A DNA stretch of 64,000 bases. Source: Promethearchaeota archaeon (GTDB lineage: Archaea > Asgardarchaeota > Lokiarchaeia > Sigyniarchaeales > SOKP01). Both the position numbers and the translations under genes were made by a program. Position 1 is the stretch's first letter, and every line of letters starts with the position of its first letter. Under the pieces are notes generated by a model, which worked only from the letters and a program-made list of their open reading frames with translations, made no database searches and had not been told where the DNA came from. Location: assembly GCA_019058365.1 (NCBI GenBank), contig JAHPZE010000007.1, positions 1 to 64,000 of the forward strand, in the 5' to 3' direction. Positions 423 to 62,057 of the stretch are shown piece after piece.

Positions 423-1249
423 TTAGAGGCCTTTAGGGCCTTGCTTACATATTTCATAGGCTTCGTCTACAGAAGCATTCTCATGAACTATCGCTCGAAC
501 TGCTTTAATCATTCCAATAGGGCTGTCACTTTGAAAGATATTTCTTCCCATATTTACGTCTATAACTGTAAAAATCAGTTATAGTCTACGCCGACAGCTC
601 CTTTGTCAATTGCATCTTTTGACATCTGTAGTGCATCTCTTTCTTCGATCTTTTTTCCTCCTGCGATTACAATTGGTGCTGGACAAATACTTGTTACTTC
701 TTCAAAGTTCTCGCAATAATAGGTCTTTACAAAAGTAGCACCCATTTCTGCAGCCATTCTACTTGCCATCCCTAGATAACGTGCATCTCTTACCATTTCT
801 CTTCCAACGGCAGTGACAGCTAATGTAGGAATGCCATATTCTTGCCCCCAATTTACTAACTTTGAAAGGTTCATTAAAGTTTGCTTCTCATATTCTCCTC
901 CTACAAAAATTGAGCAAGTAATAGCTGATACATTCAATCTTATCGCATCATCAACAGTAACATTTATTTCTTCATTAGAGAGCTCTTTTAACATTGAAGC
1001 CCCCGCTGATACTCTTAAAACAATAGGTACATCAATTTCAGAAGGTACACAGTTTCTAAGCATCCCTCTTGTCAACATAAGAGCATCAGCATATTCAAAT
1101 AAGGGCTTCATATCAGTGAAACATTTTAATTGACTGGGAACGTTTCCAAAATATCCATGATCAATAGCTAACATAACGCACCGCCCACTCTTTGGTTTAA
1201 TTATTCTGTTAAAGCGGTTCTGAAAACCCCAATCACCCACTACAACCAT
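423..1249 (-). CDS. lsrF: LsrF-like class I aldolase/thiolase; spliced gene complement(join(423..553,586..1249)), 264 aa
   Basis: Motifs [29 protein letters not shown]. The ORF stops at ...GAVGVDYN*, but the conserved C-terminus [23 protein letters not shown] continues in another frame to TAA 425-423. Removing 554-585 gives GAVGVDMGRNIFQ. Confidence 0.9.
554..585 (-). other. 32-nt bulge-helix-bulge intron in lsrF mRNA
   Basis: Sense RNA: GCGU [AG^A] CUAUAACUG AUUUUUA CAGUUAUAG ACGU [AA^A] UAUGG. Central 4-bp helix GCGU/ACGU, two 3-nt bulges, perfect 9-bp intron stem; cutting at ^ restores frame and motif. Confidence 0.88.
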
Positions 1250-14824: not shown

Positions 14825-16249
14825 TTATAAATTTTTAAGTGCAATTTTTTCTAATTCCCTAATTAAATGTTCATCAATAGGACATATGGAGGATGCATTT
14901 AATAGTTTAGATGCTTGTTCTTTAGCCCTTTTTCTAACAGATTTAGAACCATTCTGTTTCCAAGCATCACGCGTCATTCTATCTATTATTGGACTTGGAA
15001 AGAATAATTCTTTTCTAAAATATTTCAGGGTTGATGGATGGGATAAAAGTTCTTCTTTATCTTCATAATCTTTTAGAATTTCTGAAGCAAAAGGAGATCC
15101 ATGATCTTCAATACCTTGAATTAATCTTTTTACCATCCCTACTATTTCATTATCAATAATTAATTTCTCAATACTTTGGGTTGATTCAAAATCAAGCATT
15201 CCAGGACCAGAAACCATATTTATCCCTGCTAATCCTGCTAATAGAGCTCCCATGCCGGCTTCAAAACCCGCTTGACCATCGGGTACTTTAGAATCGCTAA
15301 GTGACATATATGCATGAGTGGGCAAATTTAAGAGTTTTCCCATTTCAACATCACCAAGATTTATCATCATCGTTTCTATTGCACCCATTGGTGTCGTTCC
15401 TTGTTTCATATCAAAAACAGCAGGAGAACCACCCCAGATTAAAGGAGCTCCTTGTTTGGTTAACTGAACTATTACAGTCCCAGCAAGGCATTCCGCACAG
15501 TGTTGAGTAATCGATCCAATCAAGGTGATTGGAGCACTAGCTCCCGCTAATGGCATTGAAACAAATTCAGAGGGGATCATACTTTTTGCAGCATCAATTA
15601 ATGATTGTGTAGTTAGATCTGACCATTTAAGAGGTGGACTTGGACATGCATCAAATATAGCCAGTGGTTTTCTCGCTAAATCATCTTCCGATTGCCTACA
15701 TGTTAATAGGATCTCTCGCATGATCGAGAAGCTTTCTTTGCGAAATGTTCCAGTAATAACGGGTTTATAGCAATTAGACAACGCGAGATCTAATCTATGC
15801 CAATCTTGAGCGTCTTTTGGTACATCATTATAAATTAATGCTGTACTTTGAGCATCGATATATTTCAATTGTTCAACTACTTTTGAAAATCTTATGAAAT
15901 CTTTTGATATTGCTTCTCTAATATCCCCTGTTTCCTCATCAAGGATGAAAATTGCAGCAGACCCTGGATCAAAATTAACATTATCTTCCTTCAAAGTAAT
16001 ATATTCATTACCCTCTCGGTCGTAAAGGGTAATCTCACTTGGTGCAGTATCTAAACATTTATTAATTAAATCTGGTGGGATATAATAACGTGAACCTTCA
16101 TGATTTATACCATTTTGATTAAATAACTCAATTGCTTCCTGATTCTCAATAAAAACTCCTTGAGTTTCGAGAATCATTTTAGCTTCTTCCAAAATCTTTT
16201 GTTTATGTTCTTCATCTAATATTTTTATCTGTGGTCTTATAATTGGCAT
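14825..16249 (-). CDS. mttB: Trimethylamine methyltransferase family protein, non-pyrrolysine (MtgB-like)
   Basis: SPPLKW, GASAPITLIG, SDSKVPDGQAGFE, GPGMLDFE motifs; Leu at the Pyl-equivalent position; no in-frame TAG. Confidence 0.85.
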   Translation of the reverse strand: MPIIRPQIKILDEEHKQKILEEAKMILETQGVFIENQEAIELFNQNGINHEGSRYYIPPDLINKCLDTAPSEITLYDREGNEYITLKEDNVNFDPGSAAIFILDEETGDIREAISKDFIRFSKVVEQLKYIDAQSTALIYNDVPKDAQDWHRLDLALSNCYKPVITGTFRKESFSIMREILLTCRQSEDDLARKPLAIFDACPSPPLKWSDLTTQSLIDAAKSMIPSEFVSMPLAGASAPITLIGSITQHCAECLAGTVIVQLTKQGAPLIWGGSPAVFDMKQGTTPMGAIETMMINLGDVEMGKLLNLPTHAYMSLSDSKVPDGQAGFEAGMGALLAGLAGINMVSGPGMLDFESTQSIEKLIIDNEIVGMVKRLIQGIEDHGSPFASEILKDYEDKEELLSHPSTLKYFRKELFFPSPIIDRMTRDAWKQNGSKSVRKRAKEQASKLLNASSICPIDEHLIRELEKIALKNL

Positions 16250-32407: not shown

Positions 32408-33976
32408 ATGAAATTAAAAGTTAAAGAAATTAATTTTGAAACCGGAAATGCGAAAGATATTGTTTTAAATATTAAGGATGCTCAAGAATTAGGACAAAAA
32501 GCAGGAGAACGCGTTATAGTAAAAAATATTAGATCAAAATCTATTGAAGAAAAGTACTGGGTAGCAATAATACAAATAGATTTCCTAGGTTCTATTGTTG
32601 AACCTGGAGAAATTGGAGTATTTCTTAATCTTTTAAGAGAGAAAAAAGATTTAAAAAATGAAATGATTGTCTCTGTGAGACCAGCAGATCCACCCGACTC
32701 TTTTAGATTTATACAAAAAAAAATAAAAGGACAAAAACTTTCTAGCGAAGAAATAAATAATATTATATCTGATGCGGTTTCTGGATCCCTATCACGGATA
32801 GATCTAGCAGCATTCATAACAGGAGTATCTATTAATGGCATGGACAACGAAGAAATGACGGCTTTAACTCTATCGGAAACTAGGAGTGGAGAAATATTTT
32901 ATTTCGGAATGGATGTCTACGATAAACATAGCACAAAAATCTATATTTCGTAGGTTTTGTTAAAAGGTGGCGTCCCAGGGAATAAGGTATCTCTAATTAT
33001 CGTTCCGATTGTCGCTGCTGCCGGATTAACTATTCCAAAATCTTCAACAAGAGCCATAACATCCCCATCAGGTACAGCAGATTCAATGGAGGTCTTAGCT
33101 CCTATTGCATTTAATCCAGAAGAATTAAAAAGTATTGTATCTGAACAAAATGCATGTATAATCTGGGGTGGAGCTCTTGAAACTGCTCCAGCAGATAATA
33201 TTCTAATAGAAATTGAGCGTCCTTTACATATGGATCCCATAGGTCTTATGATACCGTCTATTCTAACAAAAAAGCTTTCATTAGGAGTTAAAAAGCTTGT
33301 TCTTGATATACCTGTAGGGGAAGGCACTAAATTTCCTACAATCGATAAAGGAAAACAGTTTGCTTATTTATTTAAAGAAATTGCTGCAAATGTTGGAATT
33401 GAAGCAGAATGTGCGCTCACCTTGGCTCATCAACCTATAGGTCATGCGGTCGGTCCTGCTTTAGAAGCTAAAGAAGCACTTACATTATTACGTGATTATT
33501 CTGCTGGACCAAACTCTTTAATAGAAAAGTCTACTGATTTAGCTGGTATTCTTCTTGAAATGAGCGGAAAGGCTCAAAAAGGTATGGGACAAAGCTTAGC
33601 GAAAGATATTTTACGCTCTGGTAAAGCTTATGAAAAAATGAAAAAAATTATCGAAGCTCAGAAGGGAGATCCAGAAATAAAACCCGAAGATATTAAGCTA
33701 GGACCATATATTAAAGAATTTTTTGCTTCTAAAGATGGATATATAGTTGATGTAAATAATTCAATAATAAATCGAATCGCAAAAACTACAGGTTGCCCCA
33801 ACTCGAAGAGTTCAGGTGTAGAGATAATTAAAAAACAAGGTGCAAAAATAAAAGAGGGAGAATTAGTATTTAGAGTCTATTCCCATAATGAATCTAAATT
33901 AAGAAAGGCAGAAAAAATTTATAATAGTACGGGAGGTCCAATTCGTCTAGGAGGAATGTTGATTGAAAGAGTATAA
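32408..33976 (+). CDS. deoA: AMP phosphorylase; spliced gene join(32408..32934,32965..33976), 512 aa
   Basis: Archaeal AMP phosphorylase N-domain, KSSTRAITSPSGTAD and QPIGHAVGPALEA motifs. DKHSTGGVPGNK is split by a 30-nt insert containing TAG. Confidence 0.92.
32935..32964 (+). other. 30-nt bulge-helix-bulge intron in AMP phosphorylase mRNA
   Basis: UAGC [AC^A] AAAAUCUAU AUUUC GUAGGUUUU GUUA [AA^A] GGUGG. Central helix UAGC/GUUA, two 3-nt bulges, 9-bp stem; splicing gives CAU AGC ACA GGU GGC = HSTGG. Confidence 0.9.
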
Positions 33977-52152: not shown

Positions 52153-53481
52153 TTATTCAATTAATTGTGTTTTTCCAGTTCCCCAAAGCCCAAGAGCTAC
52201 TCCTAATTCCTTATGTTGTTTAGCAACATCTCTTACATTCTTCCCTTCCATTACAGCATCTATCGCTTGTCTGAATGCTTTCGCTCCGGCGATTGGCCCA
52301 TCAGGATGACTATGGATACCACCACCACTACCAATGAGGATATCTTTACCTGCCTCTTGTATACATTTCTCTACCATTCCTTGTGTAATTCCACCACTTG
52401 GCATCGGTAAAGTTGGTTTAATGTGTTGTAATGGATATCTTAATGCTTTAAGATTCTGTTCATATCTCTCATCCAAAATTTCAGCTTTACCATAGGGAGC
52501 GGGAATTACTACAGAGTCTGCGCCACAAATTCTTGGTAATTTCGCAAAAGTTAACATACTTGTCATTCCTGTCCATTCTCCTCCAAAGTAAGCACCACCA
52601 AAATCCATGTGTCCTAATATTGGGACTTTTATTGAAGGATCTTCTGCTATTTGTCTTAAAGCTTCATAACCCGTTGTTAGGTAATTAATCATTAAAGCAT
52701 TTGCTCCTAATTCGATCATTTTATCAGCGTATTCAAACATTTCAGGGAATTTAGTTGTAATATTAATTGTATATAATGTTTTTTCTCCTTTTTCAGAATC
52801 CGCTCGGTCTACCGCTTCCATTACTTTAACAATTCTGTCTTCAAGAGTATTAAATGAGGGGTTTGAAATTAACTCATCATCTTTTACTACATCACATCCC
52901 CCAACTGCTGCTTTATATACTAAATCAGCTGCAACTTCACATGTATGTCCTGTACAAGGCTTTACCATATTATTTAATAAAGGACGTTCAGGGATATTCA
53001 TTAATTTTCGAATGCCATCAATACCAAACTTAGGACCTTTGAAATCTTCTAACCAACCTTTAGGAAAAGCTAGATCTACTAACTTTAGGCCATGTGTTAT
53101 GCTGATATTTCCAATCACGGTAGTAAATAACATGGGAATGCCCATCCCTTTGATATTCACAATTGGAAAGCCGATTTGAACGAAATATGTTCTTTCTTTA
53201 ATATCCTTGGGGATGATATACTCATACATAGGGAGTTCATACACACCTAATACTCTTGCCACATGATATTTTCTGACTTCTTCTGTCTCTGCAGGAACTC
53301 TAACCCATGTTCCAGTCGACTGTTCAATTGCAGCAAATCTTGATAAATAGTTGACATTTTGACCCTTAGGGCGTTTAATGATATAACTCGCAATAATGTA
53401 TTTTTCTAAATCAATGCCATCTAATCCTATTGCTTCAGGAACATCATAATACTGTTCACAGCTAGGAAAATTTTCTTCCAT
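52153..53481 (-). CDS. RuBisCO-like protein (form IV)
   Basis: EQSTGTW, GPKFG, KDDE, SGG, GGGIHSHP motifs; KPC replaces KPK and HM replaces HR. Confidence 0.9.
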   Translation of the reverse strand: MEENFPSCEQYYDVPEAIGLDGIDLEKYIIASYIIKRPKGQNVNYLSRFAAIEQSTGTWVRVPAETEEVRKYHVARVLGVYELPMYEYIIPKDIKERTYFVQIGFPIVNIKGMGIPMLFTTVIGNISITHGLKLVDLAFPKGWLEDFKGPKFGIDGIRKLMNIPERPLLNNMVKPCTGHTCEVAADLVYKAAVGGCDVVKDDELISNPSFNTLEDRIVKVMEAVDRADSEKGEKTLYTINITTKFPEMFEYADKMIELGANALMINYLTTGYEALRQIAEDPSIKVPILGHMDFGGAYFGGEWTGMTSMLTFAKLPRICGADSVVIPAPYGKAEILDERYEQNLKALRYPLQHIKPTLPMPSGGITQGMVEKCIQEAGKDILIGSGGGIHSHPDGPIAGAKAFRQAIDAVMEGKNVRDVAKQHKELGVALGLWGTGKTQLIE

Positions 53482-61952: not shown

Positions 61953-62057
61953 GCAGCTGTAGCCTAGATGGTAAGACGCCGGCCTCGAGCGTTCTTAAAT
62001 ATGATCAAGAAAGCCGGTGCGCATAAGCGCTCGAGGGTTCGAATCCCTCCAGCTGCG
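61953..62057 (+). tRNA. tRNA-Ser(CGA) with 22-nt intron at 37/38 (61990-62011)
   Basis: Acceptor GCAGCTG/CAGCTGC, discriminator G, anticodon stem CCGGC/GCCGG, CT-CGA-G, long variable arm GCGC-ATAA-GCGC, T-arm GAGGG-TTCGAAT-CCCTC; no encoded CCA. Confidence 0.93.

What the first reader, a model, noticed from the sequence alone, without database searches (positions are those of the whole stretch)
32929..32965. 30-nt in-frame BHB intron with a stop codon in the DKHSTGG motif of AMP phosphorylase
Seen: CAU AGC AC^AAAAAUCUAUAUUUCGUAGGUUUUGUUAAA^A GGU GGC. The UAG lies in the intron stem, and both halves are intact and in the same frame. Known: KHSTGG is a conserved active-site motif of the thymidine/AMP phosphorylase family, so a split protein or a 10-aa insertion is unlikely to work. 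Inference: obligatory splicing gates nucleotide-ribose salvage.
Basis: partly seen in the sequence, partly recalled or inferred. Interest (0 to 1): 0.88.

Follow-up and report, generated by a model that had tools for sequence, protein, structure and literature searches.

The report
tRNA-type mini-intron in AMP phosphorylase gene
The AMP phosphorylase gene of this Asgard (Promethearchaeia/Lokiarchaeia) archaeon is interrupted, in the middle of its conserved DKHSTGG motif, by a conserved 30-base hairpin with the shape and cut sites of an archaeal tRNA-type intron, so the enzyme can almost certainly be made only after the messenger RNA is spliced, something reported so far for essentially one archaeal protein gene (cbf5).

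Summary
Window 32408..33976 (+) encodes an AMP phosphorylase (TIGR03327 above cut-off). It is interrupted by 30 nt (32935..32964) between Thr and Gly of DKHSTGG, with an in-frame TAG at 32951-53.

In 54 congeneric genomes, 21 species carry a 30-nt insert at this site. Each insert holds TAG, TAA or TGA stops. About 25 species lack it and read DKHSTGGVPGNK.

The insert folds as a bulge-helix-bulge motif: a 4-bp helix (32929-32/32959-62), two 3-nt bulges and a 9-bp intron hairpin. Cutting after the second base of each bulge restores the orthologues' exact reading frame in all 21 species.

- **Helices:** they are kept through compensatory changes, including exon-intron covariation.
- **Exons:** dN/dS is 0.06, the same as in intron-less genes.
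- **Intron:** it is far more conserved (79% pairwise identity) than fourfold-degenerate sites (46%).
- **Machinery:** the genome encodes two EndA paralogues (one alpha-like with the broad-specificity KPR loop) and RtcB, but no PylS.
- **Outer exon helix:** it is weak, so the motif is a relaxed BHB.

Two more introns of the same layout were verified here (an lsrF-like aldolase in this window, and RNase HII). The scan had already reported one in radA of this genome. Splicing itself is inferred, not observed. A regulatory "gating" role is unsupported.

The parts
32408..32934 (+). Exon 1 of the AMP phosphorylase gene (175 codons plus AC of the Thr codon); ends ...GAT AAA CAT AGC AC
   Evidence: ORF list. 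Pfam Glycos_trans_3N. TIGR03327 AMP_phos scores 554 bits against a cut-off of 535. Intron-less orthologues fix the junction.
32929..32932 (+). Ha: the exonic 5' strand (UAGC) of the central 4-bp helix H of the BHB
   Evidence: Pairs with 32959-62 in 21 of 21 species (84 of 84 cells). Position 1 covaries U-A (15 species) with C-G (6 species) without exception.
32933..32935 (+). B1: the 5' three-nucleotide bulge ACA; predicted cut between 32934 and 32935
   Evidence: Structure counts. The rule of cutting between the 2nd and 3rd bulge residue is from PMC2738675. The third base varies A/U.
32935..32964 (+). The 30-nt intron
   Evidence: Absent from 22 congeneric and 6 more distant orthologues, which read ACN GGN at this point. 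Present, always 30 nt long, in 21 species.
32936..32958 (+). Intron hairpin h': 9-bp stem (32936-44 with 32950-58) and 5-nt loop (32945-49)
   Evidence: 97.4% of cells are paired, and 5 pairs show changes on both sides. The loop is less conserved (70%) than the stems (81%).
32951..32953 (+). In-frame TAG stop inside the 3' strand of the hairpin
   Evidence: At this codon the relatives carry TAG, TAA or TGA, and some have a second stop just before it.
32959..32962 (+). Hb: the intronic 3' strand (GUUA) of the central helix H
32963..32965 (+). B2: the 3' three-nucleotide bulge or loop AAA; predicted cut between 32964 and 32965. Its last base becomes the third base of the Thr codon.
   Evidence: B2 is AAA, AUU, AAC or ACU in relatives. 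AC+N is always Thr, so every variant restores HSTGG.
32965..33976 (+). Exon 2 (A of the Thr codon, then GGVPGNK... to the stop)
   Evidence: ORF. Pfam Glycos_transf_3 and PYNP_C. Alignment to T. kodakarensis AMP phosphorylase 4GA5, E = 3e-120.
32911..32975 (+). Possible distal exon-exon helix (32911-20 with 32967-75) that would close the 3' bulge across an 8-nt/1-nt internal loop; status uncertain
   Evidence: Predicted in the MFE fold. 95% of cells are paired but no pair changes on both sides, and both strands are constrained by coding.
554..585 (-). A second, unrelated 32-nt intron of the same layout in an lsrF/DhnA-like aldolase gene (exons 575..1249 and 423..551 as ORFs): GCGU AGA [9 bp/7-nt loop/9 bp] ACGU AAA
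   Evidence: the MFE is exactly 4-3-9...9-4-3, z = -4.3. Intron-less orthologues read GAVGVDMGRNIFQ. G068 shares the intron, with compensatory changes.

Best explanation
This is a genuine archaeal endonuclease-type (bulge-helix-bulge) intron inside a protein-coding gene. The proposed mechanism has four steps. (1) The gene is transcribed with the 30 nt included. (2) In the pre-mRNA, the last exon-1 bases UAGC pair with the intron's GUUA to form a 4-bp helix. That helix is flanked on opposite strands by the bulges ACA and AAA, with a 9-bp intron hairpin on the inner side. (3) The splicing endonuclease EndA cuts after the second base of each bulge (32934|32935 and 32964|32965). In this genome EndA is most likely an (alpha-beta)2 enzyme of the broad-specificity kind. 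(4) RtcB joins the exons, and probably circularises the 30-mer. The mature mRNA reads ...CAU AGC ACA GGU GGC... and encodes a 512-aa AMP phosphorylase with an intact DKHSTGGVPGNK motif. Unspliced mRNA terminates translation at the TAG and yields only a 181-aa fragment.

What is shown: the insert, its exact boundaries relative to intron-less orthologues, the conserved and covarying BHB geometry, selection on exons and intron, and presence of the enzymes.

What is inferred: that cleavage and ligation actually occur.

On history: the intron was most likely gained once near the base of a large clade of this genus. It was then lost precisely at least about eight times. It behaves like a tolerated, structurally constrained passenger rather than a regulator.
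For: - **Exact 30-nt insert.** It lies between ACN(Thr) and GGN(Gly). 28 intron-less orthologues (22 in the genus, 6 in other families) read DKHSTGGVPGNK with no scar.
- **Present in 21 species.** 21 of about 46 congeneric species carry it. It is always 30 nt and always carries one or two stops drawn from all three stop codons.
- **Intact spliced ORFs.** Spliced in silico, all give uninterrupted ORFs; the 20 full-length genes are 512 aa and G045 is cut by a contig end.
- **Purifying selection on exons.** dN/dS is 0.064 among intron-bearing genes and 0.056 among intron-less ones, with dS often above 1.
- **Covarying structure.** On 21 sequences H is 100% paired and h' 97.4% paired. 7 pairs change on both sides. 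0 of 500 shuffles reach the observed values, and slid controls drop to 34-53% paired.
- **Exon-intron covariation.** Synonymous changes in the exon (CAU AGC to CAC AGU) are matched by changes in the intron (GUUA to GCUG).
- **Cut rule restores the frame.** The published rule of cutting between bulge bases 2 and 3 (PMC2738675) restores the orthologous frame and a Thr codon in every species, whatever the third base of B2 is.
- **Constrained intron.** Its pairwise identity is 0.79, against 0.46 at fourfold sites of the same genes. Ser is AGY in 21 of 21 intron-bearing genes but TCN in 6 of 22 intron-less ones.
- **Machinery present.** There are two EndA paralogues and one RtcB. One paralogue keeps the Y/H/K catalytic residues and the K-P-R of the crenarchaeal specific loop that confers broad specificity (PMC3241643). 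The other lacks the catalytic His. Asgard EndA is reported as (alpha-beta)2 with the L1 loop (PMC5829648).
- **Single copy.** The gene has one copy in this genome.
- **Same layout elsewhere.** Identical architecture and cut logic hold for two further genes checked here: the lsrF-like aldolase and RNase HII. RNase HII is interrupted inside DEAGRG in about 48 of 51 congeners.
Against: - No transcript, cDNA or peptide evidence exists. A scan of metagenome contigs for a spliced junction found only ordinary intron-less relatives, none close to an intron-bearing species.
- The outer exon-exon helix h that closes the 3' bulge in a strict hBHBh' motif is missing. At most 2 bp form next to it. The distal helix shows no covariation.
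- Because of the A-run, thermodynamic folding of the window's own sequence prefers a 5-bp H/8-bp h' register. If used, that register would give a 29-nt excision and a frameshift. The canonical register is the MFE only in relatives such as G019.
- Covariation counts are partly inherited: the U-A/C-G switch in H represents only one or two events on the tree.
Confidence: 0.88

Rival explanations
1. Split gene. The insert is a structured intercistronic spacer, and the enzyme is assembled from two separately translated polypeptides: 181 aa ending ...HSTKIYIS, and about 339 aa starting at the TTG at 32957.
For: An in-frame UUG lies 3-6 nt after the stop in all 21 species, so termination-reinitiation is conceivable. 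Both halves are under purifying selection, which this model also predicts.
Against: - The break lies inside the invariant DKHSTGGVPGNK motif.
- There is no conserved Shine-Dalgarno-like sequence; most relatives have GUAAAUUUU upstream of the UUG.
- The model does not explain why the spacer is always exactly 30 nt.
- It does not explain why exon bases covary with spacer bases.
- It does not explain why BHB cut positions reproduce the ancestral codon exactly, or why the same geometry recurs in the aldolase gene, where the insert is 32 nt and shifts the frame, and in RNase HII.
Confidence: 0.05
2. Translational recoding of the unspliced mRNA. Either the stop is read through (TAG as pyrrolysine or another residue), giving a 522-aa enzyme with a 10-aa loop, or the ribosome hops over the 30 nt as in T4 gene 60.
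For: The insert is a multiple of three. A stem-loop with a stop codon near its start resembles bypassing signals. Rfam reports a PYLIS_3 match at 15202-15300 (-) in the window.
Against: - Relatives carry TAA only, TGA only, or two consecutive stops.
- No PylS scores above cut-off in the genome.
- The mttB-like ORF under the PYLIS hit is uninterrupted.
- For hopping, the take-off codon ACN has no matching landing codon before GGN (AAA, AUU, AAC, ACU).
- The aldolase insert is 32 nt, so read-through cannot rescue that gene.
Confidence: 0.03
3. Pseudogene. The gene was inactivated by a small insertion and is decaying.
For: Annotation pipelines would call two fragments. The pathway might be dispensable, since 8 of 54 congeners gave no match at the E <= 1e-100 threshold of that search.
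Against: All 21 interrupted genes have no other stop or frameshift, despite saturated synonymous divergence. Their dN/dS of 0.064 equals that of intact genes. The insert itself is conserved well above neutral sites.
Confidence: 0.02

Closest known systems
cbf5 pre-mRNA intron of Crenarchaeota (Aeropyrum, Sulfolobales, Desulfurococcales; Watanabe 2002; Yokobori 2009, PMC2738675)
   Same: [quoted passage not shown]
- The cut sites fall between the 2nd and 3rd bulge residues.
- It sits inside a catalytic-site codon or motif.
- Its distribution is patchy, with gains and losses among relatives.
- The host has a heteromeric, broad-specificity EndA.
   Different: The gene (AMP phosphorylase) and the phylum (Asgard/Promethearchaeota) are different. 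Here the intron is a fixed 30 nt, in phase and with a conserved stop. cbf5 splicing was shown by cDNA and in vitro cleavage, whereas here it is inferred.
Archaeal tRNA and rRNA BHB introns (hBHBh' and relaxed HBh'/BHL motifs; Marck and Grosjean 2003)
   Same: The 3-4-3 geometry, an intron hairpin h', and the EndA + RtcB pathway. A tRNA with a 22-nt intron ending AA|A lies in the same window at 61953-62057.
   Different: The substrate is an mRNA, and half of helix H is coding sequence. The outer helix h is essentially absent, so only an enzyme tolerant of relaxed motifs should cut the 3' site.
BHB intron in the 5' UTR of Haloferax volcanii HVO_1309 (PMC7714728)
   Same: It is an mRNA substrate of the splicing endonuclease.
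   Different: That intron lies in the untranslated leader and does not interrupt the reading frame.
Other candidate mRNA micro-introns of this genus
   Same: The layout is nearly identical: a 4-bp H, a 3-nt bulge (ACA/AGA), a 9-bp A/U-rich hairpin with a 5-7-nt loop, a 4-bp H, then an AAA-type bulge. Length is 30-32 nt, with insertion in highly conserved motifs.
   Different: There is no detectable sequence homology. A covariance model of the AMP phosphorylase intron finds no other copy in the genome. Their distributions also differ: RNase HII is nearly fixed, AMP phosphorylase is in about half of species, and the aldolase intron is in 2 species.

Membership tests
Archaeal BHB (EndA-type) intron | [quoted passage not shown] | tested here: met
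   H is 32929-32/32959-62, B1 is 32933-35 and B2 is 32963-65. H is paired in 84 of 84 cells across 21 species. Caveat: the A-run allows a competing 5-bp register, which folding programs prefer for the window's own sequence.
Archaeal BHB (EndA-type) intron | Cuts between the 2nd and 3rd bulge residues give the correct mature junction | tested here: met
   The predicted product AGC AC|N GGN equals the sequence of intron-less orthologues in all 21 species. The rule is from PMC2738675.
Archaeal BHB (EndA-type) intron | Inner helix h' (intron side) | tested here: met
   The stem is 9 bp, 97.4% of cells are paired, and 5 pairs show compensatory changes.
Archaeal BHB (EndA-type) intron | Outer helix h (exon-exon) closing the motif, as in a strict hBHBh' | tested here: not met
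   Next to Ha and B2 only C-G and A-U can pair, and they are flanked by mismatches. A distal helix (32911-20/32967-75) is possible but shows no covariation. This is therefore a relaxed HBh'-type motif, not a strict one.
Archaeal BHB (EndA-type) intron | Host encodes the splicing endonuclease and the RtcB ligase; relaxed motifs need a broad-specificity enzyme | tested here: met
   PF01974 is found twice and PF01139 once in the genome. The alpha-like paralogue keeps Y/H/K and the KPR of the specific loop. The second paralogue lacks the catalytic His.
Archaeal BHB (EndA-type) intron | Spliced RNA or an excised, circular intron observed | not testable with these tools
   No transcriptome is available. 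The metagenome junction scan found no cDNA-like contig.
AMP phosphorylase (TIGR03327; archaeal DeoA) | Score above the curated equivalog cut-off, with the family's three-domain architecture | tested here: met
   It scores 554 bits against a cut-off of 535, even with the insert read through. Pfam finds Glycos_trans_3N, Glycos_transf_3 and PYNP_C. The best solved relative is T. kodakarensis 4GA5/4GA6, E = 3e-120. Enzyme activity was not tested.
Programmed translational bypassing (T4 gene 60 type) | Matching take-off and landing codons flanking the gap | tested here: not met
   The take-off codon is ACN. The codon before GGN is AAA, AUU, AAC or ACU.
Pyrrolysine (TAG) recoding | PylS/tRNA-Pyl machinery present and TAG conserved at the site | tested here: not met
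   No PylS scores above cut-off. The orthologous stops include TAA and TGA.

The most novel reading that the evidence does not exclude
This intron is one member of a population of EndA-spliced micro-introns scattered through protein-coding genes of this Promethearchaeia genus. The candidates are AMP phosphorylase, RNase HII, an aldolase, radA, uL11 and others. They are typically 30-32 nt, inserted in the most conserved motifs, and gained and precisely lost on short evolutionary time scales. If so, routine mRNA splicing by the tRNA machinery exists in the closest prokaryotic relatives of eukaryotes. Standard gene calling would then systematically mis-annotate these genes as broken.
Probability: 0.6. 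Interest if true: 0.88.

Novelty: new member of a known kind. Interest (0 to 1): 0.74.

Why it matters
- **Rarity.** Endonuclease-type introns in archaeal protein-coding regions have been documented for cbf5 of Crenarchaeota only. A 2020 paper still counts that as the single coding example besides a 5'-UTR case. I found no report for Asgard archaea in the held literature.
- **Strength of this case.** It has unusually strong comparative support: 21 intron-bearing and about 25 intron-less congeners, plus exon-intron covariation. Together with the RNase HII and aldolase introns, it indicates that mRNA splicing by EndA/RtcB is a regular feature of this lineage.
- **Annotation.** These genes are called as two fragments or as pseudogenes. 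Metabolic reconstructions of these MAGs would therefore wrongly drop AMP phosphorylase from the AMP/ribose-1,5-bisphosphate/RuBisCO pathway. RuBisCO-family genes are present, one of them in this window.
- **Evolution.** It offers a natural system, with repeated precise losses, for studying how introns enter and leave coding genes without a spliceosome.
- **Coupling.** It raises the question of how splicing is reconciled with coupled transcription and translation.

Tried and rejected
- **Motif topology.** I first laid the BHB out with each bulge 5' of its H strand and concluded that the junctions did not fit. Working through the tRNA 37/38 case and the cbf5 paper corrected the topology (exon-side Ha, intron-side Hb), after which everything fits.
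- **Sequence-specific covariance model (R1).** Searched over the window and the whole genome, it found no second copy, so the intron is not a repeated element.
- **Strict genome-wide scan.** It required a 4-bp H, a contiguous h' of at least 6 bp, and joining of two open frames of at least 60 codons. It covered contigs C1-C39 only. It recovered this intron as the best hit, but the other 24 hits look like noise. It also missed known cases, such as the aldolase (short exon 2) and RNase HII on C39 (3235-3864, inside the contigs scanned). It is not a census.
- **Search for spliced transcripts.** A degenerate exon1-exon2 junction pattern was scanned over the metagenome contigs. It gave 13 hits, all ordinary intron-less relatives (at most 89.8% identity to any intron-bearing gene; one hit is 99.7% identical to the intron-less G003 gene). 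This says nothing either way.
- **Pyrrolysine.** The Rfam PYLIS_3 hit at 15202-15300 prompted a check. There is no PylS, and the mttB-like ORF is uninterrupted.
- **Not run.** No structure or complex prediction was run for the two protein halves, because halves of one fold pass such tests trivially.
- **Literature on the motif.** A search for residue-level roles of KHSTGG in AMP phosphorylase found nothing usable. The functional importance of the motif therefore rests on its invariance in 49 orthologues, on alignment to 4GA5, and on general knowledge of the thymidine phosphorylase family.

Full report
**Observation**

The window holds two same-frame ORFs, 32408..32953 and 32957..33976, separated by a TAG at 32951-53. 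The first carries the Glycos_trans_3N domain. The second carries Glycos_transf_3 and PYNP_C.

Read through, the protein scores above the curated cut-off of the AMP phosphorylase equivalog TIGR03327 (554 bits against 535). It aligns over its length with the Thermococcus kodakarensis enzyme 4GA5/4GA6 (E = 3e-120).

The quoted RNA is correct. Ten extra codons (K I Y I S * V L L K) sit between HST and GG.

**Is the insert real, and where are its ends?**

I searched 41 and then 54 related genomes. 46 of the 54 congeners have the gene. Twenty-one species carry an insert of exactly 30 nt at this site. About 25 species lack it.

All 28 intron-less orthologues I read (22 from the genus, 6 from other families of the order) have ...GAY AAR CAY (AGY/TCN) ACN GGN GGN GTN CCN..., that is DKHSTGGVPGNK, with no scar. 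This fixes the insert to 30 nt between AC(N) and GGN.

The inserts hold TAG, TAA or TGA at the sixth codon, and in some species a second stop at the fifth. Twenty-one independent assemblies rule out an assembly artefact.

The relatives are MAGs named Promethearchaeota or Promethearchaeia archaeon (Asgard, formerly Lokiarchaeota).

**Structure**

In a BHB motif, the exon-1 bases just before the 5' bulge pair with the intron bases just before the 3' bulge. Each cut falls between the second and third bulge residue (PMC2738675). Here the elements are:

| Element | Coordinates | Sequence |
|---|---|---|
| Ha | 32929-32 | UAGC |
| B1 | 32933-35 | AC\|A |
| h' 5' strand | 32936-44 | AAAAUCUAU |
| loop | 32945-49 | 5 nt |
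| h' 3' strand | 32950-58 | GUAGGUUUU |
| Hb | 32959-62 | GUUA |
| B2 | 32963-65 | AA\|A |

These coordinates were confirmed by the covariance-model hit.

The product AGC AC+A GGU is the orthologous sequence. In relatives B2 is AAA, AUU, AAC or ACU. Because ACN is always Thr, every variant restores HSTGG.

On the 21 sequences:
- H is paired in 100% of cells and h' in 97.4%.
- Seven pairs have changes on both sides.
- No shuffle of 500 reaches the observed values.
- Sliding the partners by 1-3 columns drops pairing to 34-53%.

The first pair of H switches between U-A (15 species) and C-G (6 species) without exception. The exon side of that switch is a synonymous CAU to CAC change, so coding sequence and intron covary.

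Only 2 of 200,000 shuffles of the 30 nt give this geometry. The 37-nt motif folds with z = -4.1.

There are two caveats. First, the A-run lets folding programs slide to a 5-bp H/8-bp h' register for the window's own sequence. That register would excise 29 nt. In G019 the canonical 4-3-9 structure is the MFE. Second, the outer exon-exon helix of a strict hBHBh' is missing. A distal helix (32911-20/32967-75) is possible but shows no covariation, and both of its strands are coding. The motif is therefore a relaxed (HBh'-type) BHB.

**Selection**

Spliced in silico, all 21 genes are uninterrupted (20 of 512 aa; G045 is cut by a contig end). Their pairwise dN/dS has a median of 0.064. The intron-less genes give 0.056. 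Synonymous divergence is often above 1. This excludes a pseudogene.

The intron is 79% identical on average, against 46% at fourfold-degenerate sites of the same genes. The Ser codon that forms part of Ha is AGY in 21 of 21 intron-bearing genes, while 6 of 22 intron-less genes use TCN. Both results indicate selection on the RNA structure.

**History**

On a gene tree rooted with other families, the earliest-branching congeners (G012, G043) lack the intron. The next lineages (G068, then G018/G062) have it. Presence and absence then need at least 8-10 changes.

Intron sequence variants follow the gene tree. The simplest reading is one gain followed by repeated precise losses, although recombination among species cannot be excluded.

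**Machinery**

The genome has two EndA-family genes and one RtcB.

One EndA aligns end to end with the catalytic subunit of the Aeropyrum pernix heterotetramer (3P1Z_B). It keeps the catalytic Y, H and K. It also keeps the K-P-R of the specific loop whose lysine confers broad substrate specificity (PMC3241643).

The other EndA lacks the catalytic His. This fits the (alpha-beta)2 architecture with the L1 loop reported for Asgard archaea (PMC5829648; bioRxiv 10.64898/2026.10.13.758758). Such enzymes cut relaxed motifs.

**Rivals**

*Pyrrolysine or stop read-through.* Excluded, because relatives carry TAA, TGA or double stops. The genome has no PylS above cut-off. The Rfam PYLIS_3 hit lies in an uninterrupted mttB-like ORF.

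*Gene-60-type hopping.* It lacks matching take-off and landing codons.

*Split enzyme.* Translation from the UUG after the stop cannot be strictly excluded. But this model explains none of the following:
- the fixed length of the insert;
- the exon-intron covariation;
- the coincidence that BHB cut sites rebuild the ancestral codon;
- the recurrence of the same layout in other genes.

**Other introns**

Prompted by earlier notes of this scan, I tested two further cases.

*Aldolase.* An lsrF-like aldolase in this window (- strand) carries a 32-nt insert at 554..585, folding as GCGU-AGA-[9 bp]-ACGU-AAA. The MFE is exactly canonical, with z = -4.3. The cuts give GUA GAU AUG. Intron-less orthologues read GAVGVDMGRNIFQ. 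G068 shares the intron, with compensatory changes.

*RNase HII.* The gene at G000 C39 3235-3864 carries a 30-nt insert inside DEAGRG with the same 4-3-9-5-9-4-3 layout. It is present, with TAA/TAG/TGA stops, in about 48 of 51 congeners. It is absent in G063, which reads DEAGRGPVLGP. A housekeeping gene interrupted in nearly every species of a genus can hardly be anything but spliced.

The scan had already reported a radA intron in this genome (note e1-2635324), which I did not re-test. The AMP phosphorylase intron has no sequence-level copy elsewhere in the genome.

The intron reading and the cut sites are supported. The claim that splicing gates nucleotide-ribose salvage is not. Splicing is a prerequisite for the enzyme in intron-bearing species. 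However, half of the congeners do without the intron under identical selective constraint.

The pathway context is plausible. RuBisCO-family genes are present, one of them at 52183-53025 in this window.

**Novelty**

The mechanism is the known cbf5-type pre-mRNA splicing. The gene, the phylum and the depth of comparative evidence are new as far as the held literature shows. I class it as a new member of a known kind. There is a substantial chance that it belongs to a lineage-wide set of mRNA micro-introns.

Direct RNA evidence is the missing step. A metagenome scan for spliced junctions was uninformative.

Noticed in passing
window 554..585 (-), gene 423..1249 (-): An lsrF/DhnA-like aldolase gene is interrupted by a 32-nt BHB intron (GCGU AGA [9-bp hairpin] ACGU AAA). 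The predicted splice gives GVD|MGRNIFQ, as in intron-less orthologues. Among 46 congeners with the gene, only G068 shares the intron, with compensatory changes.
   Followed up: yes
G000 contig C39 3235..3864 (+), outside the window; loci L162-L191: The RNase HII gene carries a 30-nt insert with stops inside the DEAGRG motif, in the same 4-3-9-5-9-4-3 layout. It is present in about 48 of 51 genomes of the genus and absent in G063.
   Followed up: partly
L142 (G050:C144) and L144 (G041:C32): In two congeners, the aldolase orthologue matched by window 578..1249 has a different extra 27-30 nt with a TAA, at another position in the gene. This may be a further intron site.
   Followed up: no
window 61953..62057 (+): A tRNA (anticodon CGA, long variable arm, so probably Ser) has a 22-nt intron after position 37 that ends AA|A. 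Rfam finds it and ARAGORN misses it.
   Followed up: partly
window 15202..15300 (-), ORF 14825..16249 (-): Rfam reports a PYLIS_3 (mttB pyrrolysine insertion sequence) match inside an uninterrupted 474-aa ORF. The genome has no PylS above cut-off, so this is probably a non-Pyl MttB-family homologue and not a recoding signal.
   Followed up: partly
window 52183..53025 (-): A RuBisCO large-subunit family gene (446-aa open frame) lies about 19 kb from the AMP phosphorylase gene, and a second copy is on contig C37. This is consistent with the archaeal AMP/ribose-1,5-bisphosphate pathway.
   Followed up: no
G065 contigs C128 and C103: One genome bin holds both an intron-bearing and an intron-less AMP phosphorylase gene (89% and 85% identity to the window's protein). 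This may be a mixed bin (contamination about 9%) or two strains.
   Followed up: no
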